This document shows positions 5,923 to 45,480 of a stretch of DNA of 64,000 nt, one piece after another (positions within the stretch are counted from its first letter, which is position 1; each line of letters opens with the position of its first letter). The translations under genes and the position numbers were made by a program. This stretch comes from an uncultured Calditrichaceae bacterium (GTDB lineage Bacteria; Calditrichota; Calditrichia; RBG-13-44-9), in NCBI GenBank assembly GCA_964387645.1, contig CAYLYM010000005.1, forward strand, positions 2,508 to 66,507, in the 5' to 3' direction. The notes beneath the pieces were generated by a model that saw only the letters and a program-made list of their open reading frames with translations, searched no databases and had not been told where the DNA came from.

Positions 5923-6310
5923 TTTTTTAAGAAAGTTAATTGAAACAAGGATGTCGGTTATGATTCCTTATACATTGTTAAAGTTTAATAGCATTTTCAA
6001 ATTGCTTATAATTTGGAATTGCATTATTAAATTGTATAGTATTTTTTCTAGAAATACTCTCCTTGAATAATTGTTGATGCCAGCCAATAGATCACTTCAT
6101 AAAAAAGTTTATTTATATTTGTAACGTTTCGACAATTTAATGCATTAAAAAAATAGTTTAATGTGCTAAAGAAGCGAACTAGTCAATAATGAATTATATA
6201 AGGTTGAATAATTAATATTCGTTCTGAATTTTACCAATTAGAGGCCGGTTATAAAAAATACTACTCAAGTTTATAAGAATTGTTTATAATGAAATATTGA
6301 GGGACTGGTT

Positions 6311-32338: not shown

Positions 32339-33325
32339 TTATTCCTCTTTATATCCCAATTTATCGTGCAAAAAATCATTAAAACTTTTTTTAGAGAAAT
32401 TTTCCAGGGCTTCACGCGCCGCTTTTCTTACTTTTTCATTGGGATGCAAACTAAATTGTTGCAATATTTCGCCCAGGTTTTCAGTCTTATTAATATTTCC
32501 AAGGGTCAAAAGCGCATAGCATAAAATATCCTCATCGTTAGAAGTTAATAATTGCTCGATTTGTTGAGCGAGTACTTTTGAATTGGATGAATAACTTGAA
32601 CTGATGGCTTCAAGAACAAGGGTTTTATCCTTTGAAAGGTCAAGGAAACGTTGAATTTCATTTATCCAGTAATGAGGAAATTTACCCATAGCTTTCAGCG
32701 CAGCTCTTTGAGTAGAAACCCGCTCAGATTCGATAAAGTCTTTTATCCATTCCCGTACTACTTCTAGAAATCCCAGGTCACTCAGGGCAATTAAAGCCGT
32801 TTCTCTTAACTCCACATCTTCAAATTCGTCTTCAATTATATTTAAAAATAAGTTTTTTACTCTTAAGTAATCTTCTCGCAACGATTCAGTTTGAACTTCA
32901 TCCCATTCCTCATAAAATTCTAACTCTGGTCCACTTCCCATTTCATCTTCAAAATTTTGTAGAATACCTTCGTAAATCAAATTTTCCATAGCCTTGATTG
33001 CTGCCTTTCGGATAGCGTTGTTACTATCATTTTCTATCAGTTCGATTAGTGTGTCCAGGATGTATGGTTCAAATATACAACCATGGGCAGCTAAAGCAGC
33101 AGCACCACGGATACGATCGTCAGGGGATTTTAGATGTTCTAAAATAAATTGAACATTCGCTGGCGAATAGTCACCTTTTTCACGAATCTCCGATAATTTT
33201 GTTAGAACATCTTTCCAATTATTAATCGACATATTTAGGCCCTTGTTTTTAATTTTTAAATAATCACTACTAATTAATTTTCTTACAGTTCCCGCGAATA
33301 ACACAATTAAAATTTTTATTTGCAA
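32339..33325 (-). CDS. HEAT/PBS-lyase repeat protein
   Basis: Repeated …IR.AAA.AL… helical repeats. Confidence 0.5.
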   Translation of the reverse strand: MQIKILIVLFAGTVRKLISSDYLKIKNKGLNMSINNWKDVLTKLSEIREKGDYSPANVQFILEHLKSPDDRIRGAAALAAHGCIFEPYILDTLIELIENDSNNAIRKAAIKAMENLIYEGILQNFEDEMGSGPELEFYEEWDEVQTESLREDYLRVKNLFLNIIEDEFEDVELRETALIALSDLGFLEVVREWIKDFIESERVSTQRAALKAMGKFPHYWINEIQRFLDLSKDKTLVLEAISSSYSSNSKVLAQQIEQLLTSNDEDILCYALLTLGNINKTENLGEILQQFSLHPNEKVRKAAREALENFSKKSFNDFLHDKLGYKEE

Positions 33326-33731
33326 TTTAAGAGAAATTTTTAAAGAATTTGGCTAATTTTTCACTTTTAGTTTAAGCGTATAAATATAAATAATATAAAA
33401 AATGTTGGCTCACTCTCTTGCGTAAATTTTATAACTTATTAAATTCTAAAATAAATCGAATTAAACGATTGGAGTTTTTATTTTTATAAAGATATGTAAC
33501 TTTCGATGATTTTTATTATTATAATCAAAGATAATGTTAATTTTAACAAATTTTGTGGGTTATAGTATTCTAAACAGAATTTTAACAAATGTTTAAATAT
33601 TGTAAATTTTTACTTATATGGAACTCTTGGGGTTATGTTTGATTATAAAACTTGTTAGAAATACTTTTTGATTTAACTTGATTCTTGTTCTGTCGAAAAT
33701 TTATATTTATTAACTAAAAAAAAGATAGGAT

Positions 33732-34760
33732 ATGAGTGTATTAAGTGACAAAGAGAAATTAGTACTTGAAGCAATTGTAAAATTTTTCATTCTAAATGCT
33801 AACCCGGTTGCATCGAATTATGTAGCCAGACATAGTGCTTTAGCATTTAGTCCTGCTACAATTCGGAATATAATGTACAGCCTTGAAGAAAAAGGGTATA
33901 TTTATCAACCTCATACTTCGGCTGGACGGGTGCCTACTACTCGTGGGTATAGGTTTTATGTTGACCACATGATGCGGAGGGCGAGGTTATCTACCGGTCA
34001 GAAAGAAACGATTAAAAAAGCAGTGTTTCAGAATCCCGGAGACTTCGAAACGGTTCTAAAAGAAGCTTCTAGAATACTGGCTCATTTATCTCAACAACTT
34101 AGCGTAATTATATCGCCCGAGTTTGATGAAGGTGTTTTTCACAGAATGGATATTACTCGTTTAAGTAGCGAACGGCTGTTACTTATCCTTTCGATAAAGA
34201 GTGGTATGGTCAAAACAATTCTTTTGGAAGTTTCATCATATCTTCGGGATGAACATTTGAATTCTCTTTGCAACATTTTAAACGAGCGTTTACATGGTTT
34301 AAAGGTTCGGGAAATTCGTGCGAAATTTCGTGAAATTGTTCAGGATATCGCTGATGACAAGAGTGGTTTAATCCCGCTTTTTAGTAAAGCAGCTCATAAA
34401 ATATTCGATTTCTCTGGCGAGAACGAAGTATTTCTCACAGGAACCCATAATATTTTGAGACAACCAGAGTTTGCCAATAGTATTAAGGTGTCTAGTGTTG
34501 TTGAGTTATTAGAAGATAAAAACCTCGTTATTCATCTTTTAGATGATGATATACCAGACCAGAAGTTAAGTATTAAGATCGGAGAGGAGATCAGAGAGAA
34601 GAAGATGAAAAATTGCAGTATTATTTCTGCACGGTATCGGATTGGGAATATGTCTGGGACGCTTGGAGTTATTGGTCCAATACGCATGGATTACAGTTAT
34701 TTAGTTCCCTTAGTAGATTTTACAGCCAATTTCCTTTCCGATTCGCTCGGTGAGAATTAA
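33732..34760 (+). CDS. hrcA: heat-inducible transcription repressor HrcA
   Basis: N-terminal winged HTH (…SPATIRNIMYSLEEKGYIYQPHTSAGRVPTTRGYRFYVD…); 342 aa. Confidence 0.8.
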   Translation: MSVLSDKEKLVLEAIVKFFILNANPVASNYVARHSALAFSPATIRNIMYSLEEKGYIYQPHTSAGRVPTTRGYRFYVDHMMRRARLSTGQKETIKKAVFQNPGDFETVLKEASRILAHLSQQLSVIISPEFDEGVFHRMDITRLSSERLLLILSIKSGMVKTILLEVSSYLRDEHLNSLCNILNERLHGLKVREIRAKFREIVQDIADDKSGLIPLFSKAAHKIFDFSGENEVFLTGTHNILRQPEFANSIKVSSVVELLEDKNLVIHLLDDDIPDQKLSIKIGEEIREKKMKNCSIISARYRIGNMSGTLGVIGPIRMDYSYLVPLVDFTANFLSDSLGEN

Positions 34761-34856
34761 TACTTTTGAAAAAAAAATTTTATCTGATCTGCCGTGACTG
34801 AATAAGAAAAAGACAGAGAAGGAAAGTCTGATATTTTTATCTAAAGAGAAAGGTAA

Positions 34857-36044
<1,188 letters not shown>

Positions 36045-36212
36045 CTTTAACATAAGGGGCTAAATTCTGAAATATTTTTTATTTTCCTCATACATGGCGA
36101 TCGACGAACCAGAAAAAGATTTACTCCTCACTTCAATTCCATAGAAAATAAAAATTATTAACAAAAGGTACATTGTATTTGAATAATTGTCCCAATTTTA
36201 GAAGAGACTATT

Positions 36213-36573
36213 ATGTCACCTTCATCTGTTGAAATCTGTAAGGAAACAATCGTGCATATGGATTTAGTGGAAAAAGTCAAAAAAAGTTTACCTGGAAATG
36301 ATAAAATTCAGGCATTAGTATATACTTTTAAGATATTAGGCGATCCAACGCGATTATGAATTGTTTTGGCCCTGGCCAGGGGGAAATTATGTGTGTGATA
36401 TTGCCACATTAGTAAATTTGTCTGTTTCTGCCGTCTCACATCAACTTCGTCTGTTACGAAGTATGAAGCTGGTTAAATTCATAAAAGAGGGGAATATGGT
36501 TCATTATTCTTTGGATGATGAACATATCGAGAAAATTATTGGTGAGGCACAAAATCACGTAAGAGAAAAGTAA
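36213..36573 (+). pseudogene. ArsR/SmtB-family regulator carrying a nonsense codon and a 2-bp deletion
   Basis: MSPSS…ILGDPTRL, then TGA (36357-36359) where Arg is expected. The same frame continues IVLALARGKLCV. The (TG)4 run at 36390-36397 is 2 nt short of what is needed for …CVCDIA, shifting to the frame of the listed ORF 36361..36573 (…VCDIATLVNLSVSAVSHQLRLLR…). Confidence 0.6.
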
Positions 36574-36700
36574 AAATCTTTTACTTATTAACATTATGCC
36601 AGTCAGGAATCGAACAAAAAATCAGTTATTTTAACCAGTCATTTTAAAGTTTTCAATATAGACTGCACGGACTGATCAGTGCATATCAAAAGAGTTGTTA

Positions 36701-36747
36701 AAACAAATGCTCGGTTATGAATTGGTCGGGCATTTGTTTTTTTATCC
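36701..36747 (+). terminator. candidate terminator
   Basis: aaacaaatgc…gcatttgttt 10-bp stem with a large loop, followed by ttttttt. Confidence 0.3.
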
Positions 36748-36842
36748 CAAATTTTATGAATAACCTATTATTTCCTCACACAAAAAACTCATCTTTGGTA
36801 ATTGAAGGAAAAAAATTTTCTAAAAAGGTTTATAAAAAGTGC

Positions 36843-36895
36843 TTGACGAATTGAACTTATGTTCATTATATTGCGTAAAATGAACATAAGTTCAA
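36843..36895 (+). promoter_or_regulatory. sigma70-like promoter (-35 TTGACG 36843-36848, -10 TATATT 36867-36872) overlapped by a perfect 16-bp inverted-repeat operator
   Basis: TTGAACTTATGTTCAT (36851-36866), 13-nt spacer, ATGAACATAAGTTCAA (36880-36895). The -10 lies inside the spacer. RBS AAGGTGG and ATG of the DUF134 gene follow at 36911. Confidence 0.55.
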
Positions 36896-36910
36896 TATTG
36901 AAGGTGGATA

Positions 36911-37357
36911 ATGAGAGGGCCATATCGGAAAAGAATGATATTGCAGCCGCCGCAATTTAAAAATTTTAAACCTGGGGGAATACCAAGTCGGTTTTTAAAA
37001 TCCATTATTCTTACAGTGGATGAATATGAAGCAATACGACTGGCCGATCATCTTGGTCTTGAACACCAGGAAGCAGCAGAGCGAATGAAGATATCAAGAC
37101 CGACTTTTACCCGATTAATTGAACAAGCAAGGCAAAAAGTTGCCACAGCATTGGTAGAAGGAATGGAATTAATAATTGAAGGAGGTAATATATATTTTAT
37201 CAATACGTTAAGTCATTGTAAAGATTGTGGTGAAACTATTCCTCAACCATTTACTGAGGAAATTGATCAGTGTCCTGATTGTGGTTCAGAAAATGTTGAA
37301 AATTTAGCCTGGCAGTTTATAGGAAGAGGAAGAAAAGGTTATAGAAGGGGACGTTAA
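36911..37357 (+). CDS. DUF134 (UPF0251) predicted DNA-binding protein with C-terminal CxxC…CxxC zinc ribbon and RG-rich tail
   Basis: …LTVDEYEAIRLADHLGLEHQEAAERMKISRPTFTRLIEQARQKVA… (sigma-70 region-4-like HTH typical of DUF134); CKDCG…CPDCG; GRGRKGYRRGR tail. Confidence 0.65.
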   Translation: MRGPYRKRMILQPPQFKNFKPGGIPSRFLKSIILTVDEYEAIRLADHLGLEHQEAAERMKISRPTFTRLIEQARQKVATALVEGMELIIEGGNIYFINTLSHCKDCGETIPQPFTEEIDQCPDCGSENVENLAWQFIGRGRKGYRRGR

Positions 37358-37358
37358 G

Positions 37359-38216
37359 ATGAAAATCGCTGTTGCAAGTGGAAAAGGAGGAACGGGTAAA
37401 ACATTAGTAGCAACAAACTTTGCCTATTTTGTTTCTAAAGAGAATCCTGTAACGCTTTATGACCTGGATGTAGAGGAGCCTAATGCCGCTCTATTTTTCG
37501 ATGCTGAAAAGAAAGAAGTTAAATCCGTTCAAGTAATGATCCCCGTTGTGAATGAGAAAAAATGTGATCATTGTGGAGTTTGTAGCCGAATTTGCGAATA
37601 CCATGCAATTATAAACTTAGGAAATCAGGTTATGGTTTTTCCAGAATTATGCCATAGCTGTTATGGGTGTTTAGAATTATGTCCTCAAGGAGCTATTAGT
37701 GAGGGTAAAAAAGAAATTGGTACTATTCATACTGCAAAACATAATAATATAGAAATTGTTACAGGTGTTTTAAAAATTAGTGAATCTGCTACTCCAAAAT
37801 TAATTCGTGAGACAAAAAAAGAATTGTCAGATAAAAATTCAATTGAAATTTATGATTCACCACCTGGAACATCTTGTCCTGTAATAGAAGTAGTAAAAGA
37901 TGTAGATTATGTTTTAATAGTTGGTGAGCCGACTCCGTTTGGTTTGCATGATTTAGACTTATTGATGCGGGTTATAGAACAATTAAAAATACCATTTGGT
38001 GTATTAATTAATAAAGCCGATGAGCAGAATAACCTTATTAAACAGTATTGTATAGAAAAAAACGTAGAAATTATTGGGGAAATTCCTATGCGCCACGATA
38101 TAGCGTGTACTTATGCCAAAGGTAAGTTAATTATAGATGAAATTGATGATATGAGTTCACTATTCGAATCAATTTGGGATAAAATAATGCAAAAAGTTAA
38201 CGAGGCAGCTTTATGA
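37359..38216 (+). CDS. MinD/ParA-superfamily P-loop ATPase with inserted 2x[4Fe-4S] ferredoxin domain (COG1149-type)
   Basis: Deviant Walker A SGKGGTGKT; CDHCGVCSRIC…CHSCYGCLELC cysteine motifs. Confidence 0.75.
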   Translation: MKIAVASGKGGTGKTLVATNFAYFVSKENPVTLYDLDVEEPNAALFFDAEKKEVKSVQVMIPVVNEKKCDHCGVCSRICEYHAIINLGNQVMVFPELCHSCYGCLELCPQGAISEGKKEIGTIHTAKHNNIEIVTGVLKISESATPKLIRETKKELSDKNSIEIYDSPPGTSCPVIEVVKDVDYVLIVGEPTPFGLHDLDLLMRVIEQLKIPFGVLINKADEQNNLIKQYCIEKNVEIIGEIPMRHDIACTYAKGKLIIDEIDDMSSLFESIWDKIMQKVNEAAL

Positions 38217-39094
38217 AGGAAATTTTGCTTATAAGTGGGAAAGGTGGAACTGGCAAGACATCGATTTCTGCTGCACTGGGAGCGTTAGCCGGAAATAAAG
38301 CTGTTGTTGCCGACTGTGATGTGGATGCAGCCAATTTACATCTGCTTTATGAACCAGAAATAACTCGAGAAGAGAACTTTTATAGTGGTAAGGAACCAGT
38401 AATAGACCACAACTTGTGTACAAAATGTGGTTTATGTAAGGAAAAATGTCGATTTGATGCCATTTATCTGGAGGATGGACAATATAAAATTGATGAAGTG
38501 AGTTGTGAGGGGTGCTCGTTGTGTTTTCACATTTGTCCTATAGATGCTATTCGAATGGAAAAGAATTTGGCTGGAAAGTGGTATTGCGCAAAATCGCGTT
38601 TTGGGAATGATTTTTTATTTGCTCATTTGGGCATAGGTAAAGAAAATTCAGGGAAATTAGTAACAAAAGTCAAGCAAGAAGCTAAGCAGTTAGCTGATCA
38701 AAGGGGTATTTCATTTATTTTTGTGGATGGACCTCCGGGAATAGGTTGTCCAGTAATTTCGTCTTTAAGCAATGTTGATGTTGTTTTAATTGTAACAGAA
38801 GCAACACAATCAGGTTTGCATGATTTAGCAAGGTTGGTAGAATTAATAGAATATTTCAATCTTAAAGCTTTTTGTGTTATTAATAAAAGTGATTTAAATG
38901 AAGAAGTAACCAGAGAAATAAAAGAATTTTGTACAGACCATAATATTCAAATTATTACTGAAATACCATTTCATCCTGTGTTTTATGAAACTTTGCAAGA
39001 AGGGAAAACAGTAATTGAGAGTCAAAATTCAGAAATAATTGACAAAATAAGAAAAATTTTTAACGAGATGACAAAAGAGGAGAATGTGAAATGA
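38213..39094 (+). CDS. second COG1149-type MinD-like ATPase with ferredoxin domain (paralog)
   Basis: SGKGGTGKT; CTKCGLCKEKC…CEGCSLCFHIC. ATGA overlap with the upstream paralog. Confidence 0.75.
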   Translation: MKEILLISGKGGTGKTSISAALGALAGNKAVVADCDVDAANLHLLYEPEITREENFYSGKEPVIDHNLCTKCGLCKEKCRFDAIYLEDGQYKIDEVSCEGCSLCFHICPIDAIRMEKNLAGKWYCAKSRFGNDFLFAHLGIGKENSGKLVTKVKQEAKQLADQRGISFIFVDGPPGIGCPVISSLSNVDVVLIVTEATQSGLHDLARLVELIEYFNLKAFCVINKSDLNEEVTREIKEFCTDHNIQIITEIPFHPVFYETLQEGKTVIESQNSEIIDKIRKIFNEMTKEENVK

Positions 39095-39432
39095 AAGTTG
39101 CCATTACCACGCAAGCAGAAGGATGGGATGCAAAAATTGATCCTAGATTTGGTCGGGCGCGAGGATTTTGGATTATTGATACCGACACTGGGGAAGCTGA
39201 ATTTATAGACAACAATGAAAATTTTGAAGCTGCACATGGTGCTGGAACAAGCTCTGCGCAGAAAATGATCGAAAATAAAGTTAATGTATTGATTTCTGGA
39301 TCAGTTGGTCCAAAAGCAGGATCGGTACTCAAAGCAGCTGGGATTAAGATATATTTAACAAATGAAAATTTGACTGTTCGAGAAGCTTTTGATCGTTTTA
39401 AGAATAATAAATTAACTGAGATGTTAAATTAA
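39091..39432 (+). CDS. NifX/NifB-like (dinitrogenase FeMo-cofactor biosynthesis family) small cofactor-binding protein
   Basis: MKVAITTQAEGWDAKIDPRFGRARGFWIID…VNVLISGSVGPKA…GIKIY, the typical DUF/COG1433 pattern. ATGA overlap with the upstream gene. Confidence 0.65.
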   Translation: MKVAITTQAEGWDAKIDPRFGRARGFWIIDTDTGEAEFIDNNENFEAAHGAGTSSAQKMIENKVNVLISGSVGPKAGSVLKAAGIKIYLTNENLTVREAFDRFKNNKLTEMLN

Positions 39433-39449
39433 AAAAAGGAGGTGTCATC

Positions 39450-39824
39450 ATGCCAGGTGGTGATCGTACAGGACCTTTAGGTTTTGGTCCACTTACAGGA
39501 AGAGGTTTGGGTTATTGTGCGGGATATAATCATCCCGGTTATTATGTTCCTCCCGGTTGGGGCAGAGGTTTTGGTCGCGGCTGGGGTTGGGGTAGAGGAC
39601 GTGGATTTGGTTTTGGCCGAGGATTCTGGCGCTGGGGATGGCGTTGGACTGCTCCCATTCTTCCCGAACAATTAGACAAAATGCCGCCCGAATATCTGGT
39701 TGGATTAAAAGAAGAGTTACGCGGATTACGAACTACTGTTGATGATATGCTGCAAAGAATTGAAAATATGGAAAAAACCAGGGATAGCCATCAGGGTAAA
39801 GGTGAAACTACTGGTGGGGAATGA
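39450..39824 (+). CDS. DUF5320-like protein with Trp/Arg/Gly-rich low-complexity core
   Basis: N-terminus MPGGDRTGPLGFGPLTGRGLGYCAGY (the DUF5320 hallmark as I recall it); core GWGRGFGRGWGWGRGRGFGFGRGFWRWGWRW; C-terminal predicted helix. GGAGG RBS. Confidence 0.55.
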   Translation: MPGGDRTGPLGFGPLTGRGLGYCAGYNHPGYYVPPGWGRGFGRGWGWGRGRGFGFGRGFWRWGWRWTAPILPEQLDKMPPEYLVGLKEELRGLRTTVDDMLQRIENMEKTRDSHQGKGETTGGE

Positions 39825-39875
39825 TGTGAATTAATTAAAAAACTTTTAAAATTTGAGTAAAATGGAGGCTTAAAA

Positions 39876-40250
39876 ATGAAAATTGCTGTTGCTTCTGATG
39901 ATGGTGTTACAATTTCCGCGCACTTTGGTCGTACACGAGGTTTTGTGATTGCTGAAATTGAAGGTGACAAAATTGTCAATAAAGAATACCGGGAAAATAC
40001 GTTTACTGGTCATGCCCGGGGCTTAAATGTCACCGGGCATGACTTTAATGATCGTCATGGGCCAATTCTGGAAGCATTGAAAGATTGCAAGGTTGTTATA
40101 TCTCATGGAATGGGACGCCGAATTTATGAAGATTTAAGGGCTGCAGGTATTTCAGCCTTTATTGTTCAGGAAACAGATGTTGATCAAGCATTAAACCTGT
40201 ATCTTCAAAATTCTCTGGTTGATAGACCTGATAAAGGATGTGATCATTAA
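39876..40250 (+). CDS. second NifX/NifB-like cofactor-binding protein
   Basis: MKIAVASDDGVTISAHFGRTRGFVIAEIEGDKIV…; GGAGG RBS. Confidence 0.6.
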   Translation: MKIAVASDDGVTISAHFGRTRGFVIAEIEGDKIVNKEYRENTFTGHARGLNVTGHDFNDRHGPILEALKDCKVVISHGMGRRIYEDLRAAGISAFIVQETDVDQALNLYLQNSLVDRPDKGCDH

Positions 40251-40660
40251 CATAAGCGTGATAAAAGTACTAAAGATTAGAATTTCGGAAAAGGACAGAA
40301 TTCAGGTTGACAGATAAAATCCGATAAAATCCGGCGGAAGTAAGTGAACAATGAACGGGACTATATATGCATTTTCTGGAGGTTAGGTAATCTTATTGAA
40401 TAAGGTGAACTTTGTAAAATAAAAATCATCATAATACAGTGAAATGTTGACTTTTTAATGAAGCGAGAAAATCTAATGATCATAGTTAGATCTATTCTTG
40501 GTACAATTTGTAGGGGAGTAAAATAAATTAATCTTTTATTGAGAAACTTTTTCTGATTTTTGATAATCCGATTGTAAACAAATGAAAGTTCGGGTAAAAT
40601 CAAAGTTAAATTTCAAATATTAATTCTTTAAAAAATTTTAACTAATAAAGAAATAAAATT

Positions 40661-40861
40661 ATGTATGAAAAAAATCCGCAAAGAATGGGACCGGTTGGGC
40701 ATTGTATTTGTCCCAAATGTGGTTTTCGAATTTCACATAAACGTGGAGTCCCATGTCAAGACCAGAAATGTCCTCAATGTGGTGTGAAATTGATGCGAGA
40801 AGGTTCGTACCATCACAATTTGTTATTAGCAAAGAAAAAAAAGAAGAAGGAAAACTCTTGA
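40661..40861 (+). CDS. small zinc-ribbon protein (CxxC…CxxC) with poly-Lys tail
   Basis: GPVGHCICPKCG…CPQCG; Lys6 tail encoded by an A-rich tract. Confidence 0.4.
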   Translation: MYEKNPQRMGPVGHCICPKCGFRISHKRGVPCQDQKCPQCGVKLMREGSYHHNLLLAKKKKKKENS

Positions 40862-41053
40862 AAATTGAAATTAAGTTGAATTTTCTAAATGCTAATGTTT
40901 GGAGAATAAAATAAGTAAAGTACGGAAGCTTTTTAGTCCACAATCATTTTAATTGTTATTAATAAATGTGAAACACTTTATATGAGGGAATCAACAGGCT
41001 AATTTTTCTCTTGTACCTTAAATATTAGATTTTGAAATCAGGAAGTTCAATAT

Positions 41054-41704
41054 ATGATCAGTGCGACCATTGTATTTGATAATACGACTAAAAATAAGCA
41101 GTTAAAGGCAGATTGGGGATTTGCATGTGTTATTGAGTATCATGATAGGATGCTCCTATTTGATACTGGTGCTGATGGTAATATATTATTGAATAATATG
41201 AAAAAATTGAACATTAATCCACAAAGTATTCACTCAGTTTTCATATCGCACAACCATTTTGATCACATAGGTGGTCTCTCGCATTTTTTAAATGAAAATT
41301 CTGATGTGATACTCTACCTGCCTCAATCTTTAAGAGGAGTAACGCATGGACGAGAAATAATACATATTGATGACAATCCGCGAGAATTGGAAAAAGGAAT
41401 ATTTACAACTGGAGAATTAGAGGGCATTGAACAATCCCTCGTTATTTCCACATCAAAAGGAATGGTAATTTTTGTGGGATGCTCACATCCAGATATGAAT
41501 AAAATACTGAGTCGAGCTAAACAATTCGGAAAATTATTTGGCATTATTGGGGGACTACATGGTTTTAATCACTATAAATTGTTTCAGGATTTACAGTTAA
41601 TTTGTCCAACTCATTGTACAAAAAATAAACAGGTAATTAAAAATATTTATCCTGACAAGGTAATTGAGGGTGGGGTAGGTTTGCAAATAGTAATAAGTTC
41701 ATGA
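41054..41704 (+). CDS. MBL-fold metallo-hydrolase
   Basis: HNHFDHIGG (HxHxDH motif). Confidence 0.6.
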   Translation: MISATIVFDNTTKNKQLKADWGFACVIEYHDRMLLFDTGADGNILLNNMKKLNINPQSIHSVFISHNHFDHIGGLSHFLNENSDVILYLPQSLRGVTHGREIIHIDDNPRELEKGIFTTGELEGIEQSLVISTSKGMVIFVGCSHPDMNKILSRAKQFGKLFGIIGGLHGFNHYKLFQDLQLICPTHCTKNKQVIKNIYPDKVIEGGVGLQIVISS

Positions 41705-41759
41705 ACCGGATATAGAGGATAGAAAGACGAATAATAATAAAATTAAGTAGGAGAAAGTT

Positions 41760-43112
41760 ATGAAGACTGATGTGTTAGTAATTGGTGGTGGCCCTGGAGG
41801 CGTTATTTCTGCTATAGTTGGTAGAACTATTTATCCAGACAAAAAATTTATTTTGGTTCGAAAAGAACAGAAATCGATTGTACCCTGTGGTATACCTTAT
41901 GTTATTAATCGGTTAAAATCCGCCGAAGAAAATATTATGGGAGATGCTCCGCTAAAAGCTAAGGAAGTAGAAATAGTAATTGATGAAGTAATAAATGTTG
42001 ATCGAAAAAAAAAGGTGGCTCAATTAGCTAGTGGTAAGGAAATTGCCTTCCAGAAATTAGTTTTAGCAACAGGTAGTAAACCAGTTGTTCCGTCTTCAAT
42101 AAAAGGAATTGATTTAGAAAATATTTTCCCAATAAAAAAAGAACTAAACTATTTAAAACATTTAAGAGAACAAATTCACAATTTTAAAAATATTGTTATA
42201 GTTGGTGGTGGATTTATTGGAGTTGAATTTGCTGATGAAATAAGTAAACTTCCCAATAAAAATATTAGTATTATTGAGCTATCAGATCATCTTCTGGATC
42301 AATCTTTTGATGAAGAATTTAGTGAGAAAGTAGAAAATATTCTACGGAAAGAAAAAGTTAATATTTATACTCAGAGTCAGGTTGGTGGTTTTAAGGGAAA
42401 TAAGAAAGTTGAATATGTTTTATTGAATAATGGCAAAGAAATCCCTGCTGATGTTGTAATTTTATCTATTGGTTCCAGACCTAATACGGACTTAGCTGAA
42501 GAAATTGGATTAGATGTTTCTCCTTTAGGAGGAATTAAAGTAGATGAATTTATGAAAACCAGTGATTCAGACATTTTTGCCGTTGGTGACTGTGTAGAAA
42601 AGCGTTGTTTCTTTTGTCGAAAGCATATAGATGTCATGTTAGCTTCAACTGCTACTGCTGAGGCCCGATCGGCTGGTGCCAATCTGTTTCATTTAAAAAT
42701 AATAGAAATGAACAAAGGAACCATCGGAATATATTCTACTAAAGTGGGTGATTTGGCGCTGGCTACGGCCGGGCATACCGAGAAGAAAGCTATCGAAGAG
42801 GGATATGAAATTGTTACTGGTATATCTAAAGGTATTGATCGACATCCTGGTACCCTTCCAGATAAGCATGAGTTATATGTAAAACTGATATTTTCAAAAT
42901 ATTCTGGTATTATTATGGGTGCCCAAATCTATGGAGCCGATTCAGTAGGTGAGTTAATTAATACAATTGGGTTGGCTATACAAAATAAATTGACTATAAC
43001 AGATATTGCGACCATACAATATGGTACGCATCCTTTGCTAACTTCAGCACCAACTACTTATCCATTGATTGCTTGTGCTCTGGATGCTTTTAAAAAAATC
43101 CATGAATTTTAG
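41760..43112 (+). CDS. FAD-dependent pyridine-nucleotide-disulfide oxidoreductase (CoA-disulfide reductase/NADH oxidase family)
   Basis: VLVIGGGPGG FAD motif; single redox Cys in SIVPCGIPY (aligned with SFANCALPY of CoADR/Nox); second Rossmann IVIVGGGFIGVE. Confidence 0.7.
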   Translation: MKTDVLVIGGGPGGVISAIVGRTIYPDKKFILVRKEQKSIVPCGIPYVINRLKSAEENIMGDAPLKAKEVEIVIDEVINVDRKKKVAQLASGKEIAFQKLVLATGSKPVVPSSIKGIDLENIFPIKKELNYLKHLREQIHNFKNIVIVGGGFIGVEFADEISKLPNKNISIIELSDHLLDQSFDEEFSEKVENILRKEKVNIYTQSQVGGFKGNKKVEYVLLNNGKEIPADVVILSIGSRPNTDLAEEIGLDVSPLGGIKVDEFMKTSDSDIFAVGDCVEKRCFFCRKHIDVMLASTATAEARSAGANLFHLKIIEMNKGTIGIYSTKVGDLALATAGHTEKKAIEEGYEIVTGISKGIDRHPGTLPDKHELYVKLIFSKYSGIIMGAQIYGADSVGELINTIGLAIQNKLTITDIATIQYGTHPLLTSAPTTYPLIACALDAFKKIHEF

Positions 43113-43224
43113 ATAAAATATATGAAGATTAATGATAATAACTTTTAACTAAAAGTGGATTCGTTAATAATATTTGTTGAAATATCACAAAATTTGTATT
43201 TCATCTGTGCGGAGGTTGCTAACT

Positions 43225-43683
43225 ATGTTTAATAAAGCTCGATTAAAAATATATCCTGATTCCGTTCTAAGAGAAAAATCATTTCCTGTTTTCGATTTTG
43301 ATAAGAATTTGCAATCCCTAATAAATGCAATGCGAAGGATTATGTATGAACACAAAGGTATTGGTTTGGCAGCTCCACAGATTGGAATTCTAAAACAAGT
43401 TATTATTGCGGATGTTGGCAATGGGCTCCTTACTCTTGTTAACCCAACTATATTAGAAAGAAAAGGTGAAGAAATATTAACAGAAGGTTGTTTAAGTTTA
43501 CCTGGAATCGGAGTTGACGTACCGAGAAGCACACGTCTTGCTATTAGTGGTTTTGATCAATCAGGAAAAGCAATTGAAATGGAGTTAAGTGGTCTCATGG
43601 CACGTGTAGTCCAACACGAAATTGACCATTTAAATGGAGTACTAATTATTGATTATCAGGAGAATAAAAAAGAAGTGGTTTAG
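43225..43683 (+). CDS. def: peptide deformylase
   Basis: GIGLAAPQIG, EGCLSLPG, QHEIDHLNG motifs. GGAGG at 43211-43215 then ATG at 43225; the upstream extension of the listed ORF is rejected. Confidence 0.85.
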   Translation: MFNKARLKIYPDSVLREKSFPVFDFDKNLQSLINAMRRIMYEHKGIGLAAPQIGILKQVIIADVGNGLLTLVNPTILERKGEEILTEGCLSLPGIGVDVPRSTRLAISGFDQSGKAIEMELSGLMARVVQHEIDHLNGVLIIDYQENKKEVV

Positions 43684-43699
43684 AAAAGGAGAATAAGAA

Positions 43700-44518
43700 A
43701 TGAATACTCAAAATAGTAAAGTTCATACTCAAAATGAAGAAGATATGAAAATCTCAGAAAATCTTTCAAGAATAAAACATCGCATTGTAGTATTTAGTGG
43801 GAAAGGTGGGGTTGGCAAAACCACTGTGAGTGTTAATCTTGCTTTTGGATTTCAACAAAAAGGGCATAAAACAGGACTTTTAGACGCAGATATCACTGGA
43901 CCAAACATATCCAAAATGTTAGGATTGAGTGGAAACATTCAGGTTATTGATAACAAATTGATCCCACTTATCCGAAACGAATTAAAAGTGATTTCCATAG
44001 CAAACATTATCGAGAATAACCAACCTGTGATTTGGAGAGGTCCATTGAGGTCGAAATTATTGAATCAATTTTTAGGAGATGTATTGTGGGGAGAGCTGGA
44101 TTTTCTTGTTGCAGATTTACCGCCGGGCACAGGGGATGAAATTCTAACAATGACACAGAAAATGCAACCTGATATGGCTATCATTGTTACTACACCTCAG
44201 GAGGTTTCTTTAATTGATTCAGCAAGAGCTATTAATATGGCAAAAAAAATGAATATTAAAAAAATAGGTCTAATCGAAAATATGTCTGGTTTAATATGTC
44301 CAAAATGTGGAGAAAATATTGAAATATTTGGTTCAGGAGGTGGCAAAAAACAGTCTGAAGAAATGGGTATTGAATTTTTAGGTACTCTTCCTCTTGATCT
44401 TAAAACAAGAAAATTGGCTGATCAGGGGCAACCAATTCTTCTTGCCGATGCGCAGGCAGGTATATCCATTTTATTTAAACAAATTGTTGATAAAATCATG
44501 ACAGTGATTATGCAATGA
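43700..44518 (+). CDS. apbC: Mrp/NBP35/ApbC-family Fe-S cluster carrier ATPase
   Basis: FSGKGGVGKTT deviant Walker A; CPKCG motif. Confidence 0.8.
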   Translation: MNTQNSKVHTQNEEDMKISENLSRIKHRIVVFSGKGGVGKTTVSVNLAFGFQQKGHKTGLLDADITGPNISKMLGLSGNIQVIDNKLIPLIRNELKVISIANIIENNQPVIWRGPLRSKLLNQFLGDVLWGELDFLVADLPPGTGDEILTMTQKMQPDMAIIVTTPQEVSLIDSARAINMAKKMNIKKIGLIENMSGLICPKCGENIEIFGSGGGKKQSEEMGIEFLGTLPLDLKTRKLADQGQPILLADAQAGISILFKQIVDKIMTVIMQ

Positions 44519-44664
44519 AGATTTCATTAAATTTAAACTCATGTATTATAAATAACTAGATTTTATAAAAATAATATAGGATATTTTGTTTAATTCATAT
44601 TAAGAATTTTTTTAAAAATTTTTTAAAAAAACACCAATTAAATCAAATTAAGATATATTTAATA

Positions 44665-45480
44665 ATGGTCATTAATATTGACAGTTGTGATTTGAATTAT
44701 ATTAAAAAATGGTTTTTTTCTTATGTGAAATCATTTAAATCTGGTGATAAGAGTCAATTGCATAATATCTTTTTAAAAGAAGAACATACAAAGCGTGTTT
44801 GTAAAGAAATTATAGAAATTGGTAATCAATTAAATTTAAATGAAAAAGAAATAATTTTAAGTGAAATTATTGCCCTTTTACATGATGTTGGCCGCTTCGA
44901 ACAGTACTGGCTTTACAAAACTTTCTCTGATAGTCGGTCAGTTGATCATGTAGAGCTAGGAATAAAAATATTAAAGAAATATAATGTGTTAGAGAATATA
45001 GATTATGATCTACAAAAACTTATTTTTAAAACAATTGGTTATCATAATCGTGCAATTCTACCACAAAATGAGACAGAAACCTGTCTGTTTTTTTCGAAAT
45101 TACTTCGTGATGCCGATAAGCTGGATATTTTAAGAGTTGTCACGGAATATTATTATAAAAAGAATGGAGATAAGAATGATGCGATTGTATTGGATTTACC
45201 TAATACTCCCGAAGTTTCTGAAAACGTTTACAATGATTTAATGAATAAAAAGATCGTTGATATCAAACATGTGAAAAATCAAAATGATTTTAAACTACTT
45301 CAAGCCGGGTGGATTTTTGACATAAATTTTCTTCCTACCTTTCAACGTATTAAAGAAAGACATTATTTAGAAATGATTAAAAATGCTTTACCTAAATCTA
45401 AAAGGATTGAGGAAATTTTTATTTTGATTAATTCCCATCTAAATGACTCTTTAAAAAATTTAAATATTATGGTAAAATAG
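44665..45480 (+). CDS. HD-domain phosphohydrolase
   Basis: …LLHDVGRF… HD motif. Confidence 0.55.
   Translation: MVINIDSCDLNYIKKWFFSYVKSFKSGDKSQLHNIFLKEEHTKRVCKEIIEIGNQLNLNEKEIILSEIIALLHDVGRFEQYWLYKTFSDSRSVDHVELGIKILKKYNVLENIDYDLQKLIFKTIGYHNRAILPQNETETCLFFSKLLRDADKLDILRVVTEYYYKKNGDKNDAIVLDLPNTPEVSENVYNDLMNKKIVDIKHVKNQNDFKLLQAGWIFDINFLPTFQRIKERHYLEMIKNALPKSKRIEEIFILINSHLNDSLKNLNIMVK

What the first reader, a model, noticed from the sequence alone, without database searches (positions are those of the whole stretch)
36843..36895. Perfect 16-bp inverted repeat wrapped around the -10 element of the cluster promoter
TTGAACTTATGTTCAT-N13-ATGAACATAAGTTCAA is a perfect palindrome of 16-bp arms. Its spacer contains TATATT, placed 18 nt after a TTGACG -35. 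The right arm ends 15 nt before the DUF134 start. This geometry is what a dimeric repressor that occludes RNA polymerase would produce. Because the repeat overlaps the -10, the transcript would contain only one arm, so a DNA operator is more likely than an RNA hairpin. The DUF134 protein (HTH plus zinc ribbon), encoded first in the operon, is the obvious autoregulator candidate. A weaker related half-site pair (ATATTAGATTT-N10-AAGTTCAATAT, 41022-41053) sits just before the MBL hydrolase start. That pair shares the 11-mer AAGTTCAATAT with the right arm and may be a second site.
Basis: seen in the sequence. Interest (0 to 1): 0.62.

Follow-up and report, generated by a model that had tools for sequence, protein, structure and literature searches.

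The report
Twin operators in DUF134 operon promoter
The long inverted repeat is two copies of a 14-bp palindromic repressor-binding site (consensus TGAACATATGTTCA) built into the promoter of an operon of unknown function, a design conserved across many bacterial phyla and most likely read by the operon's first protein, the uncharacterised DUF134 regulator.

Summary
The repeat is real. It has perfect 16-nt arms (17 with one more pair) and is the longest local inverted repeat in the 64-kb window. It is not one large dyad, because each arm is itself a palindrome: O1 TGAACTTATGTTCA (36852-36865) and O2 TGAACATAAGTTCA (36881-36894). O1 fills the 18-bp spacer between TTGACG (-35) and TATATT (-10). 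O2 lies just after the -10.

The same palindrome (consensus TGAACATATGTTCA, with variants such as TGCACATATGTGCA) lies upstream of DUF134, DUF5320 or neighbouring cluster genes in 73 of 80 loci from many phyla. It usually sits inside a -35/-10 spacer. In the reverse test, genes next to exact copies in unrelated metagenome contigs are most often DUF134, DUF5320 or NifX-like.

The DUF134 helix-turn-helix is about 40% identical to the DNA-binding head of B. subtilis DeoR. It keeps the ISRPTxxR recognition helix, including DeoR's two base-contacting arginines. DeoR's solved operator has the same half-site (TTGAACA) and the same TGAA-N6-TTCA spacing.

The best reading is therefore DUF134 autorepression through two operators. 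Its one-dimer geometry and its second site at 41022-41053 do not. The adjacent arsR-like gene is a decayed pseudogene. All evidence is computational. I class this as a new member of a known kind.

The parts
36843..36848 (+). -35 hexamer TTGACG
   Evidence: Found by the consensus scan. The matching position holds TTGACA or TTGCAT in orthologous promoters of many phyla.
36852..36865 (.). Operator O1, TGAACTTATGTTCA (extended 36849-36868). It fills the -35/-10 spacer.
   Evidence: PWM score 24.7 bits against a shuffle maximum of 16.8. Forty-two of 80 loci have a site flanked by TTG upstream and TAnnnT or TAnnTTTG downstream.
36867..36872 (+). -10 hexamer TATATT, 18 bp after the -35
   Evidence: TATAtT is conserved at this position in other phyla. 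In Bacteroidota loci it is replaced by TAnnTTTG.
36881..36894 (.). Operator O2, TGAACATAAGTTCA (extended 36878-36897). It lies at about +2 to +15 relative to the inferred transcription start near 36879-36880.
   Evidence: PWM score 24.7 bits. A second site 24-35 bp after the first is present in 12 of 80 loci and in Caldithrix abyssi. The start-site position is inferred, not measured.
36900..36907 (+). Shine-Dalgarno sequence GAAGGTGG
   Evidence: Read from the sequence. It lies 3 nt before the ATG.
36911..37357 (+). DUF134 (UPF0251) gene. The protein has a DeoR/sigma-region-4-like HTH with the recognition helix ISRPTFTR, followed by a C-terminal Cys4 zinc ribbon. It is the proposed autorepressor.
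   Evidence: Pfam PF02001 at 84 bits against a cut-off of 27. AlphaFold2 model with pLDDT 84. Foldseek and phmmer matches to DeoR entry 7bhy. It is the only ORF in the window with [ILVM]SRxTxxR.
37359..39094 (+). Two MinD/ParA-type ATPase genes with inserted 4Fe-4S ferredoxin domains (37359-38216 and 38213-39094)
   Evidence: Pfam CbiA, ParA and Fer4. They follow DUF134 in 48-49 of 80 loci.
39091..40250 (+). NifX-like gene (39091-39432), DUF5320 gene (39450-39824) and a second NifX-like gene (39876-40250). This is the end of the tightly packed operon.
   Evidence: Pfam Nitro_FeMo-Co and DUF5320. Recurrent neighbours of DUF134. In other genomes DUF5320 often carries its own copy of the operator: 20 sites.
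36700..36747 (+). Terminator-like hairpin (14-bp stem, 13-nt loop, T7 run). It separates upstream transcription from the operon promoter.
   Evidence: the repeat finder I2 and I14. Sequence.

Best explanation
The 53-bp feature is a sigma-70-type promoter carrying two copies of a 14-bp dyad operator (family consensus TGAACATATGTTCA, that is TGAA-N6-TTCA). O1 occupies the spacer between the -35 and -10 hexamers. O2 covers the inferred transcription start. Each copy is most likely bound by a dimer of the DUF134 protein encoded by the first gene of the operon. DUF134 would read the TGAAC half-sites with a DeoR-type recognition helix (ISRPTFTR; R63 and R68). Bound protein would exclude RNA polymerase, so the operon (DUF134, two Fe-S MinD-type ATPases, two NifX-like proteins, DUF5320) is negatively autoregulated until an unknown signal releases the repressor. 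That signal is possibly sensed through the invariant Cys4 domain or a NifX-like partner.

Shown computationally:
- The element and its position in the promoter.
- Its cross-phylum linkage to this gene cluster.
- The DeoR-like reading head.

Inferred:
- That DUF134 binds the sites.
- That binding represses rather than activates.
- The transcription start site.
- The signal.
For: 1. Each arm is a palindrome, and the two arms are the only strong sites in the window.
2. Exact GAAC-N4-GTTC lies within 220 nt upstream of DUF134 in 25 of 80 loci from many phyla, against about 0.003 expected per locus (my estimate). At one mismatch or fewer there are 48 sites in 12 kb upstream, against 40 in the other 550 kb. 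Most remaining loci carry variants such as TGCACATATGTGCA at the same place. At PWM 13 bits or more there are 120 sites in 561 kb, against about 2 expected from shuffles. Of these, 77 lie before DUF134, 20 before DUF5320 and 5 before other cluster genes, and 73 of 80 loci are covered.
3. The architecture -35 / 2-3 nt / palindrome / 1 nt / -10 recurs with a 17-18 bp spacer. In Bacteroidota loci the -10 changes to TAnnTTTG, so these are real promoters.
4. In the reverse test I took 120 metagenome contigs that hold the exact 14-mer. The genes immediately downstream are most often DUF134 (15), DUF5320 (7) and Nitro_FeMo-Co (7).
5. The DUF134 HTH matches the B. subtilis DeoR DNA-binding domain bound to its operator (7bhy: 40% identity, rmsd 0.8 A over 40 columns; phmmer E 0.0017).
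6. The DeoR operator is ATTGAACAAAATTTCAAT...ACATATGTTCAA, with base-specific contacts in TTGAACA made by residues that include R34 and R39 (PMC11229326). By spacing these are the two arginines of SRPTVSR. The equivalents R63 and R68 are invariant in DUF134. The G-to-C distance of the two half-sites is 11 bp in both operators.
7. DUF134 is the only DNA-binding protein common to the loci. No ArsR homologue lies within 4 kb in any of the 80 loci.
8. Caldithrix abyssi, a cultured relative, has the same two-operator promoter.
9. Near-consensus hexamers with a 17-18 bp spacer fit a strong promoter that is repressed, rather than a MerR-type activated promoter, which needs a 19-20 bp spacer (established knowledge).
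Against: There are no binding, footprinting or transcription start data, and everything here is computational.

- The 80 loci were retrieved with peptide patterns that include the recognition helix (MxISRPTF[TS]R). I therefore could not test co-variation between protein and operator.
- Several other regulator families use the same 14-mer: ArsR 6, TetR 5, IclR 3 and LexA-like 2 of 144 flanking ORFs. The sequence alone does not name the binder.
- An arsR-like gene whose relatives are preceded by the identical 14-mer sits directly upstream.
- DeoR needs a tetramer and a full operator for stable binding (PMC11229326), so the oligomeric state of DUF134 is open.
- The O1-O2 spacing is not in helical phase across loci (24-35 bp). 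Cooperativity between the sites is therefore unsupported.
Confidence: 0.7

Rival explanations
1. An ArsR/SmtB-family metal sensor binds the sites. Each arm would be a 12-2-12-type operator (core TGAACA-NN-TGTTCA). The operon would then be metal-regulated by the arsR-like gene next door or by a paralogue elsewhere in the genome.
For: - Published SmtB/ArsR 12-2-12 sites have the core TGAACA-NN-TGTTCA, for example AATACCTGAACA-GA-TGTTCAAGTATT (PMC8790569, Table 2).
- Six of 144 ORFs flanking the exact 14-mer in metagenomes are HTH_5 proteins.
- Close relatives of the window's arsR-like gene (phmmer E 1e-29 to 1e-31) have TGAACATATGTTCA 18-21 nt before their start codon.
- The arsR-like gene lies only about 270 nt upstream of O1 (36213-36575).
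Against: - The local arsR-like gene is a pseudogene. It has an in-frame TGA and a frameshift in a (TG)4 run at the CVC codons. One strain has a further 71-nt deletion and another has lost the 5' part.
- O1 and O2 are identical in all five population contigs.
- No ArsR homologue lies within 4 kb of DUF134 in any of 80 loci or in Caldithrix abyssi.
- Intact relatives of the arsR-like gene control an ArsP permease, not this cluster.
- In those relatives the site follows the -10. In DUF134 promoters it typically sits inside the spacer.
Confidence: 0.08
2. DUF134 binds the two sites but activates or has a dual role. For example, it might reshape the spacer or recruit RNA polymerase through its sigma-region-4-like fold, rather than simply repress.
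For: The HTH superposes on sigma region 4 (5fgm, rmsd 0.7 A over 47 columns). A site inside the -35/-10 spacer is also where MerR-type activators sit (established knowledge).
Against: - The spacers are 17-18 bp, which is optimal, and not the 19-20 bp that MerR-type activation needs.
- The hexamers are near consensus (TTGACA in C. abyssi, TATATT), so no activator should be required.
- A second site over the inferred start site is typical of a roadblock.
- DeoR, the homologue with the same reading head, is a repressor (PMC11229326).
Confidence: 0.1
3. The long inverted repeat acts as a structure in its own right. It would be either a 21-bp hairpin in a 5' UTR, if transcription starts upstream, or a DNA cruciform that modulates the promoter.
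For: The 73-nt stretch folds to -22.5 kcal/mol, with z = -6.4 against shuffles. The mirrored non-consensus positions make the arms perfect complements in the window, in L006 and in C. abyssi.
Against: - Fifty of the 62 loci with sites have a single site, so no long hairpin can form there.
- Two-site loci vary in spacing (24-35 bp), and some have the central four bases in direct rather than mirrored orientation, for example L012.
- From the conserved -10 the transcript holds only O2, which folds no better than shuffled sequence (-6.9 kcal/mol, z = -0.65).
- A terminator-like hairpin at 36700-36747 limits read-through from upstream.
- No Rfam family matches.
- No T-run follows the stem, and the ribosome-binding site is not sequestered.
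Confidence: 0.04
4. Another trans-acting regulator with a GAAC-N4-GTTC specificity binds the sites. Candidates are LexA (the Gram-positive-type SOS box CGAAC-N4-GTTCG) or a full-length SorC/DeoR protein.
For: The core is identical to the SOS box of Gram-positive bacteria (from my memory of the B. subtilis consensus CGAACATATGTTCG). Two of 144 flanking ORFs in the reverse test are Peptidase_S24 proteins. DeoR itself reads TTGAACA.
Against: - The outer positions are T and A in 99 of 102 half-sites, not C and G.
- The sites track the DUF134 cluster across phyla whose LexA motifs differ (established knowledge).
- No other site occurs in the 64 kb.
- No SorC sugar-binding-domain family appears among the 25 families listed for genes next to the motif.
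- No other ORF in the window has the SRxTxxR helix.
Confidence: 0.04

Closest known systems
Bacillus subtilis DeoR (SorC/DeoR subfamily) and its dra-nupC-pdp operator
   Same: The recognition helix is nearly identical: DeoR NISRPTVSRLL against DUF134 KISRPTFTRLI. Identity is 40% over the HTH with rmsd 0.8 A. The operator half-site TTGAACA and the TGAA-N6-TTCA geometry are the same. The DeoR right half-operator even reads ACATATGTTCAA (PMC11229326). Both are repressor sites that overlap a promoter, and both use two adjacent binding units.
   Different: DUF134 lacks the SorC sugar-phosphate effector-binding domain and carries a Cys4 zinc ribbon instead. The DeoR operator lies at -60 to -21 and needs a tetramer (PMC11229326). 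The DUF134 sites sit in the -35/-10 spacer and at the inferred start site, with variable spacing. The regulated genes are unrelated.
SmtB/ArsR 12-2-12 operators (for example SmtB, ZiaR, AztR, AzuR)
   Same: The core is TGAACA-NN-TGTTCA. One or two copies lie near the -10 or the start site (PMC8790569). Relatives of the neighbouring arsR pseudogene use the identical 14-mer.
   Different: The flanks do not follow the 12-2-12 pattern: only 7 of 12 positions are symmetric in each window site (my count). No functional ArsR gene is linked to the site here or in the 80 other loci. ArsR proteins have a different fold, a winged helix.
LexA SOS box of Gram-positive bacteria (Cheo box, CGAAC-N4-GTTCG)
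   Same: The GAAC-N4-GTTC core is the same, often with ATAT in the centre. It is also a repressor site overlapping a promoter (from memory).
   Different: The outer bases are T and A, not C and G. The sites are linked to one gene cluster and not to DNA-repair genes. LexA-like genes lie next to only 2 of 144 motif-flanking ORFs.
Classical autorepressors with an operator in the promoter spacer and a second operator at the start site (for example TetR/tetO or LacI-type designs)
   Same: The logic is steric exclusion of RNA polymerase by dimers on dyad operators. The regulator is encoded in the operon it controls.
   Different: The regulator family (DUF134/UPF0251) has no characterised member in the literature I could search. 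The operator-promoter module is conserved across phyla to an unusual degree.

Membership tests
DUF134 / UPF0251 (Pfam PF02001) regulator | Match to the family profile above the curated cut-off | tested here: met
   84 bits against a cut-off of 27, E 1.1e-23, residues 4-94. The closest named relative is a Caldithrix abyssi DUF134 protein at 78% identity.
DeoR-type (SorC/DeoR subfamily) DNA-reading head and operator | HTH homologous to the DeoR DNA-binding domain, with the base-contacting arginines conserved | tested here: met
   Profile match to 7bhy_A at E 1.4e-4 and phmmer at E 1.7e-3. Foldseek gives 40% identity and rmsd 0.8 A. R63 and R68 are invariant. Their equivalence to DeoR R34 and R39 is inferred from spacing within SRPTVSR.
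DeoR-type (SorC/DeoR subfamily) DNA-reading head and operator | Operator made of TTGAA(C) half-sites in a TGAA-N6-TTCA arrangement | tested here: met
   Window O1 is (T)TGAACTTATGTTCA and O2 is TGAACATAAGTTCA(A). The G-to-C distance is 11 bp, as in the DeoR left half-operator ATTGAACAAAATTTCAAT.
SorC family transcription regulator (full membership) | C-terminal sugar-phosphate effector-binding domain (Pfam Sugar-bind) | tested here: not met
   Pfam finds only DUF134 and HTH models. The model shows a zinc-ribbon-like beta domain after the HTH. The protein therefore shares the reading head but is not a SorC family member.
SmtB/ArsR 12-2-12 operator | Core TGAACA-NN-TGTTCA within a 12-2-12 imperfect repeat | tested here: inconclusive
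   The core is present with one non-consensus half per site. Only 7 of 12 positions are symmetric over the 12-2-12 frame (my count; reference sites).
SmtB/ArsR 12-2-12 operator | A functional cognate ArsR/SmtB gene linked to the site | tested here: not met
   The adjacent gene is a pseudogene with a stop, a frameshift and strain-specific deletions. None of the 80 DUF134 loci has an ArsR homologue within 4 kb, and C. abyssi has none either.
LexA SOS box (Gram-positive type) | CGAAC-N4-GTTCG upstream of SOS genes or lexA | tested here: not met
   The outer bases are T and A in 99 of 102 half-sites. The downstream genes belong to the DUF134 cluster. Peptidase_S24 lies next to only 2 of 144 motif-flanking ORFs.
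Sigma-70-type promoter | -35 and -10 hexamers with a 16-18 bp spacer, conserved in position in orthologous regions | tested here: met
   TTGACG-18-TATATT matches 10 of 12 positions. The same positions hold TTGaca or TTGcat and TATAtT across phyla, and TAnnTTTG in Bacteroidota loci.
Sigma-70-type promoter | Mapped transcription start site | not testable with these tools
   No transcript data are available. The start near 36879-36880 is inferred from the -10.
MerR-type activator site | Dyad inside an over-long 19-20 bp spacer | tested here: not met
   The spacer is 18 bp in the window and in C. abyssi, and 17 bp in most other loci.
Structured RNA element or intrinsic terminator | Pairing conserved across homologues, a T-run after the stem, or a match to an RNA family | tested here: not met
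   Most loci have a single site: 50 of the 62 with sites. No T-run follows the stem. Rfam gives no hit at E of 1 or below.

The most novel reading that the evidence does not exclude
DUF134 proteins may be a pan-phylum family of cysteine-ligated metal or metallocluster-sensing repressors. They would have borrowed the DeoR DNA-reading head and would control, through one nearly invariant operator, a conserved but uncharacterised metallocofactor-handling system made of NifX-like carriers, Fe-S MinD-type ATPases, DUF5320 and Mrp.

The hints are:
- Long forms almost always carry two CxxC motifs after the HTH (78 of 79).
- Short forms instead carry 2-5 cysteines at the N-terminus.
- One protein is a DUF134-NifX fusion.

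If this is right, the operator defines the regulon and gives a direct route to the function of the whole cluster.
Probability: 0.3. Interest if true: 0.65.

Novelty: new member of a known kind. Interest (0 to 1): 0.45.

Why it matters
DUF134/UPF0251 regulators, and the NifX-like / Fe-S MinD-ATPase / DUF5320 clusters they head, are widespread in the many, mostly uncultured, bacterial lineages sampled here. I found no functional study of them in the searchable literature.

A defined operator and a solved-structure analogue for the reading head turn an anonymous regulator into a testable one:
- Gel-shift assays (EMSA) and reporter assays can be designed today, for example in cultured Caldithrix abyssi.
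- Genome-wide scans with the motif would delimit the regulon.
- The condition that derepresses the operon would point to the cluster's function.

The analysis also shows that the same 14-mer is used by at least three unrelated regulator families (DUF134/DeoR-type, ArsR/SmtB and LexA-type). This is a caution for motif-based regulon prediction.

Tried and rejected
1. Second site at 41022-41053. The PWM scan of the window gives nothing there. The GTTCA half has no partner at the correct spacing. Rejected.
2. The arsR-like neighbour as regulator. I reconstructed the gene and found a stop, a frameshift and strain-specific decay. It is absent from all other loci. Rejected as the local regulator and kept as a low-probability rival acting in trans.
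3. Known RNA family. Rfam at E of 1 or below over 33000-45000 gives nothing.
4. Solved structure of a DUF134 protein. None was found by sequence or as a full-length fold match; the best TM-score is about 0.3, for domains only.
5. Literature on DUF134, UPF0251, COG1342, DUF5320 or the exact 14-mer. Nothing functional turned up. The 2021 Acta Crystallographica D paper on the DeoR DNA-binding domain bound to DNA is not held, so the base contacts are cited from the 2024 NAR paper.
6. Protein-operator co-variation. This was not possible. The genome loci were retrieved by a pattern that fixes the recognition helix, and the metagenome loci were selected on the fixed motif.
7. CIRCE element for the nearby hrcA gene. 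None within 3 mismatches.
8. tRNA genes in the window. None.
Full report
**Observation**

- Left arm: TTGAACTTATGTTCAT, 36851-36866.
- Spacer: 13 nt.
- Right arm: ATGAACATAAGTTCAA, 36880-36895.
- TTGACG at 36843-36848 and TATATT at 36867-36872, 18 bp apart.
- The right arm ends 15 nt before the ATG at 36911.

The symmetry goes further than reported. There are 17 perfect pairs, and the repeat finder gives 21-nt arms at 95% complementarity with a 5-nt loop. This is the longest local inverted repeat in the 64-kb window. The consensus scan lists TTGACG-18-TATATT among the best promoter-like sites in the region.

O1 is TGAAC-TTAT-GTTCA (36852-36865). O2 is TGAAC-ATAA-GTTCA (36881-36894). Their centres are 29 bp apart. 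GAAC-N4-GTTC occurs nowhere else in the window.

**Context**

The window comes from a member of the Calditrichota. The DUF134 protein (36911-37357) is 78% identical to that of Caldithrix abyssi. Identical copies occur in five metagenome contigs, four from JGI samples and one from an ENA assembly.

The operon behind the repeat runs from 36911 to 40250 and encodes:
- DUF134
- two MinD/ParA-type ATPases with inserted 4Fe-4S ferredoxin domains
- a NifX-like (Nitro_FeMo-Co) protein
- DUF5320
- a second NifX-like protein

Upstream lie hrcA, dnaJ, an arsR-like gene (36213-36575) and a terminator-like hairpin (36700-36747).

**Comparative test 1: from the gene to the motif**

I retrieved 80 loci encoding DUF134 relatives from genomes of many phyla. 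These include Calditrichota, Bacteroidota, Ignavibacteria, Marinimicrobia, Cloacimonadota, Spirochaetota, Lentisphaerae, Kiritimatiellota, Acidobacteria, Campylobacterota and Gammaproteobacteria.

- Exact GAAC-N4-GTTC lies within 220 nt upstream of the DUF134 start in 25 of them. My estimate of the chance expectation is about 0.003 per locus.
- Allowing one mismatch to TGAAC-N4-GTTCA gives 48 sites in 12 kb of upstream DNA (41 loci). The remaining 550 kb holds 40 sites.
- Most loci without such a site have a variant palindrome at the same place, such as TGCACATATGTGCA or TGAGCATATGCTCA.
- With a position-weight matrix (PWM) at 13 bits or more there are 120 sites in 561 kb, against roughly 2 expected from shuffling.
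- Of these 120 sites, 77 precede DUF134 and 20 precede DUF5320. Five precede Mrp, MinD, Pyr_redox or MBL genes. Seven lie inside DUF134 genes and 11 lie elsewhere.
- Seventy-three of 80 loci have a site before a cluster gene.

The PWM was trained on the sites upstream of DUF134. The DUF5320 sites and the exact-match counts are therefore the non-circular part of this evidence.

**Architecture**

The aligned sites show a fixed module: TTGaca or TTGcat, then 2-3 nt, the palindrome, 1 nt, and TATAtT. The spacer is 17-18 bp.

In Bacteroidota loci the -10 position instead reads TAnnTTTG, the -7 element typical of that phylum. This argues that these are true promoters and that the palindrome is constrained to sit inside them.

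Forty-two loci have a site flanked in this way. Twelve of 80 loci have a second site 24-35 bp downstream.

Caldithrix abyssi has TTGACAaaaTGAACTTATGTTCAtTATATTgcgtacaagtaaaTGAACATAAGTTCA. This is the window's design with 34 bp instead of 29 bp between the operators.

The O1-O2 distance is therefore neither constant nor in helical phase. The long inverted repeat is a by-product of two copies of a nearly palindromic operator. In the window each copy has one consensus half (TGAACA) and one variant half (TGAACT), arranged as mirror images, and this makes the arms perfect complements.

**Comparative test 2: from the motif to the gene**

I scanned metagenome contigs for the exact consensus 14-mer and kept the 120 loci returned. 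I then ran the 144 ORFs that start within 300 nt on either side of the sites against Pfam.

| Family | ORFs |
|---|---|
| DUF134 | 15 |
| DUF5320 | 7 |
| Nitro_FeMo-Co | 7 |
| ArsR (HTH_5) | 6 |
| MarR | 6 |
| TetR | 5 |
| IclR | 3 |
| Peptidase_S24 (LexA-like) | 2 |

Where checked (L198 and L122), the MarR genes lie divergent from the ArsR genes at the same sites. The association with the DUF134 cluster is reciprocal and dominant, but the sequence is not exclusive to it.

**Who binds: the DeoR link**

No solved structure of a DUF134 protein exists by sequence. An AlphaFold2 model (pLDDT 84, pTM 0.75) shows a three-helix HTH followed by a zinc-ribbon-like beta domain.

Foldseek superposes the HTH on sigma region 4 (5fgm, rmsd 0.7 A). 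It also superposes it on the DNA-binding domain of B. subtilis DeoR bound to its operator (7bhy, 40% identity, rmsd 0.8 A over 40 columns). Sequence search agrees (E 1.4e-4 with the profile, 1.7e-3 with the HTH alone). The alignment is striking: DUF134 AERMKISRPTFTRLIEQARQK against DeoR AEQLNISRPTVSRLLQYAKEK.

According to the DeoR structural paper (PMC11229326):
- The operator is 5'-ATTGAACAAAATTTCAATTACCAATTTACATATGTTCAA-3'.
- Base-specific contacts fall in TTGAACA.
- R34 and R39 contact bases. By their spacing these are the two arginines of SRPTVSR.

The equivalent R63 and R68 are invariant in the DUF134 alignment. They are also invariant in distant DUF134 proteins that I selected only because they lie next to the DNA motif. 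The two operators share the half-site and the spacing, TGAA-N6-TTCA with G and C 11 bp apart.

This is independent, structure-based support that DUF134 itself reads these palindromes, most simply as a dimer per palindrome. In the window, DUF134 is the only ORF with an [ILVM]SRxTxxR helix.

**The ArsR rival**

Published SmtB/ArsR 12-2-12 operators have the same core, TGAACA-NN-TGTTCA (PMC8790569). Intact relatives of the window's arsR-like gene are preceded by the very same 14-mer. I therefore took this rival seriously. The evidence against it is as follows.
- The local gene is a pseudogene. It has an in-frame TGA at 36357-36359 and a frameshift in a (TG)4 run at the CVC codons.
- One strain carries a further 71-nt deletion and another has lost the 5' part, while O1 and O2 are identical in all five contigs.
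- No ArsR homologue lies within 4 kb of DUF134 in any of the 80 loci or in C. abyssi.
- The intact relatives control an ArsP permease.

An ArsR paralogue acting in trans cannot be excluded, but it is unlikely.

**Other rivals**

*RNA hairpin.* The full repeat would fold to -22.5 kcal/mol. However, most loci have one site only. The conserved -10 places the start after O1, and the resulting leader folds no better than shuffled sequence. No Rfam family matches.

*LexA.* The outer bases are T and A, not C and G. The sites follow one gene cluster across phyla.

*MerR-type activation.* The spacers are 17-18 bp, not 19-20 bp.

The stretch 41022-41053 does not score. Apart from O1 and O2 (24.7 bits each), the best hit in the window is 11.3 bits, within the range of shuffled sequence (up to 16.8 bits). 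MBL, Pyr_redox and Mrp genes do recur beside DUF134 clusters elsewhere, in 12, 7 and 10 of 80 loci. In this window they have no operator.

**Mechanism and confidence**

The most likely mechanism has five steps.
1. A strong sigma-70-type promoter drives the operon.
2. One DUF134 dimer sits on O1 in the spacer.
3. A second dimer sits on O2 over the start site.
4. Together they block RNA polymerase, giving negative autoregulation.
5. An unknown signal relieves the block.

My step-by-step confidence:

| Claim | Confidence |
|---|---|
| The cis-element and its placement in the promoter are real | above 0.95 |
| DUF134 is the binder | about 0.8 |
| The effect is repression | about 0.75 |

The signal is open. 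Two hints point to a metal or metallocluster signal, but they remain speculation.
- Cysteines: two CxxC motifs follow the HTH in 78 of 79 long forms. Short forms have 2-5 cysteines at the N-terminus instead.
- Fusion: one protein is a DUF134-NifX fusion.

**Novelty and score**

An autorepressor with operators in its own promoter is textbook. What appears new is:
- the assignment of an operator to the uncharacterised DUF134/UPF0251 family;
- the relation of that operator to the DeoR reading head;
- the cross-phylum conservation of the promoter-operator module.

I found no functional literature on DUF134, UPF0251, COG1342 or DUF5320, and no paper containing the 14-mer. Subscription journals and regulon databases could not be searched.

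I rate it a new member of a known kind, with interest 0.45.

Noticed in passing
window 36213-36575: This is an arsR/smtB-like pseudogene. It has an in-frame TGA at 36357-36359 and a frameshift in a (TG)4 run exactly at the metal-binding CVC codons. One population contig has a further 71-nt deletion (L002) and another has lost the 5' part (L004). Intact relatives (L198, L122, L109) are preceded by the same 14-mer as the DUF134 operator, and in L198 the gene is followed by an ArsP permease gene. Why a gene from a family that uses the identical operator core sits next to this promoter is unexplained.
   Followed up: yes
L018, L026, L030, L033, L034, L035, L037, L051, L072, at +314 to +323 of the DUF134 gene: Nine DUF134 genes from other phyla carry a near-consensus operator inside the coding region, near the zinc-ribbon codons. 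Most read TGGACATATGTTCA or a close variant, each with one mismatch. This may be an intragenic operator or a by-product of a conserved peptide. The window's gene lacks it.
   Followed up: no
L090 402-1154: A single ORF fuses DUF134 to a Nitro_FeMo-Co (NifX-like) domain (Pfam E 3.7e-22 and 1.3e-17). An exact operator sits at position 407, within the first bases of this ORF as delimited. The fusion links the regulator to the NifX-like proteins of the operon.
   Followed up: partly
80 genome loci and 17 metagenome DUF134 ORFs: Long DUF134 forms have two CxxC motifs after the HTH and few N-terminal cysteines (76 of 79; two more have both). Short forms without the zinc ribbon have one to five cysteines, usually two or more, before the HTH, and some end in GGCC. 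A cysteine cluster is thus almost always present somewhere in the protein.
   Followed up: partly
window 40251-40861: A 410-nt gene-free gap follows the operon. After it comes a 66-aa Cys-rich ORF (40661-40861, with two CPxCG motifs) that has no Pfam match. The same ORF is called as a gene in the JGI contigs. No Rfam hit falls in the gap.
   Followed up: partly
window 33732-36044: hrcA is followed directly by dnaJ. No CIRCE element (TTAGCACTC-N9-GAGTGCTAA, up to 3 mismatches) occurs anywhere in the 64-kb window.
   Followed up: partly
window 41054-44518: The MBL-fold hydrolase, pyridine nucleotide-disulphide oxidoreductase and Mrp/NBP35-type ATPase genes downstream recur beside DUF134 clusters in 12, 7 and 10 of 80 loci from other phyla. 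The functional neighbourhood may therefore extend to 44518, although these genes have no operator in this window.
   Followed up: partly
L207 (Caldithrix abyssi CP018099.1) 5930-6003: The cultured type species has the same two-operator promoter, with a consensus -35 (TTGACA) and 34 bp between the operators. A divergent PAS/GAF sensor gene lies upstream in place of the arsR remnant. This makes it a practical organism for experiments.
   Followed up: yes
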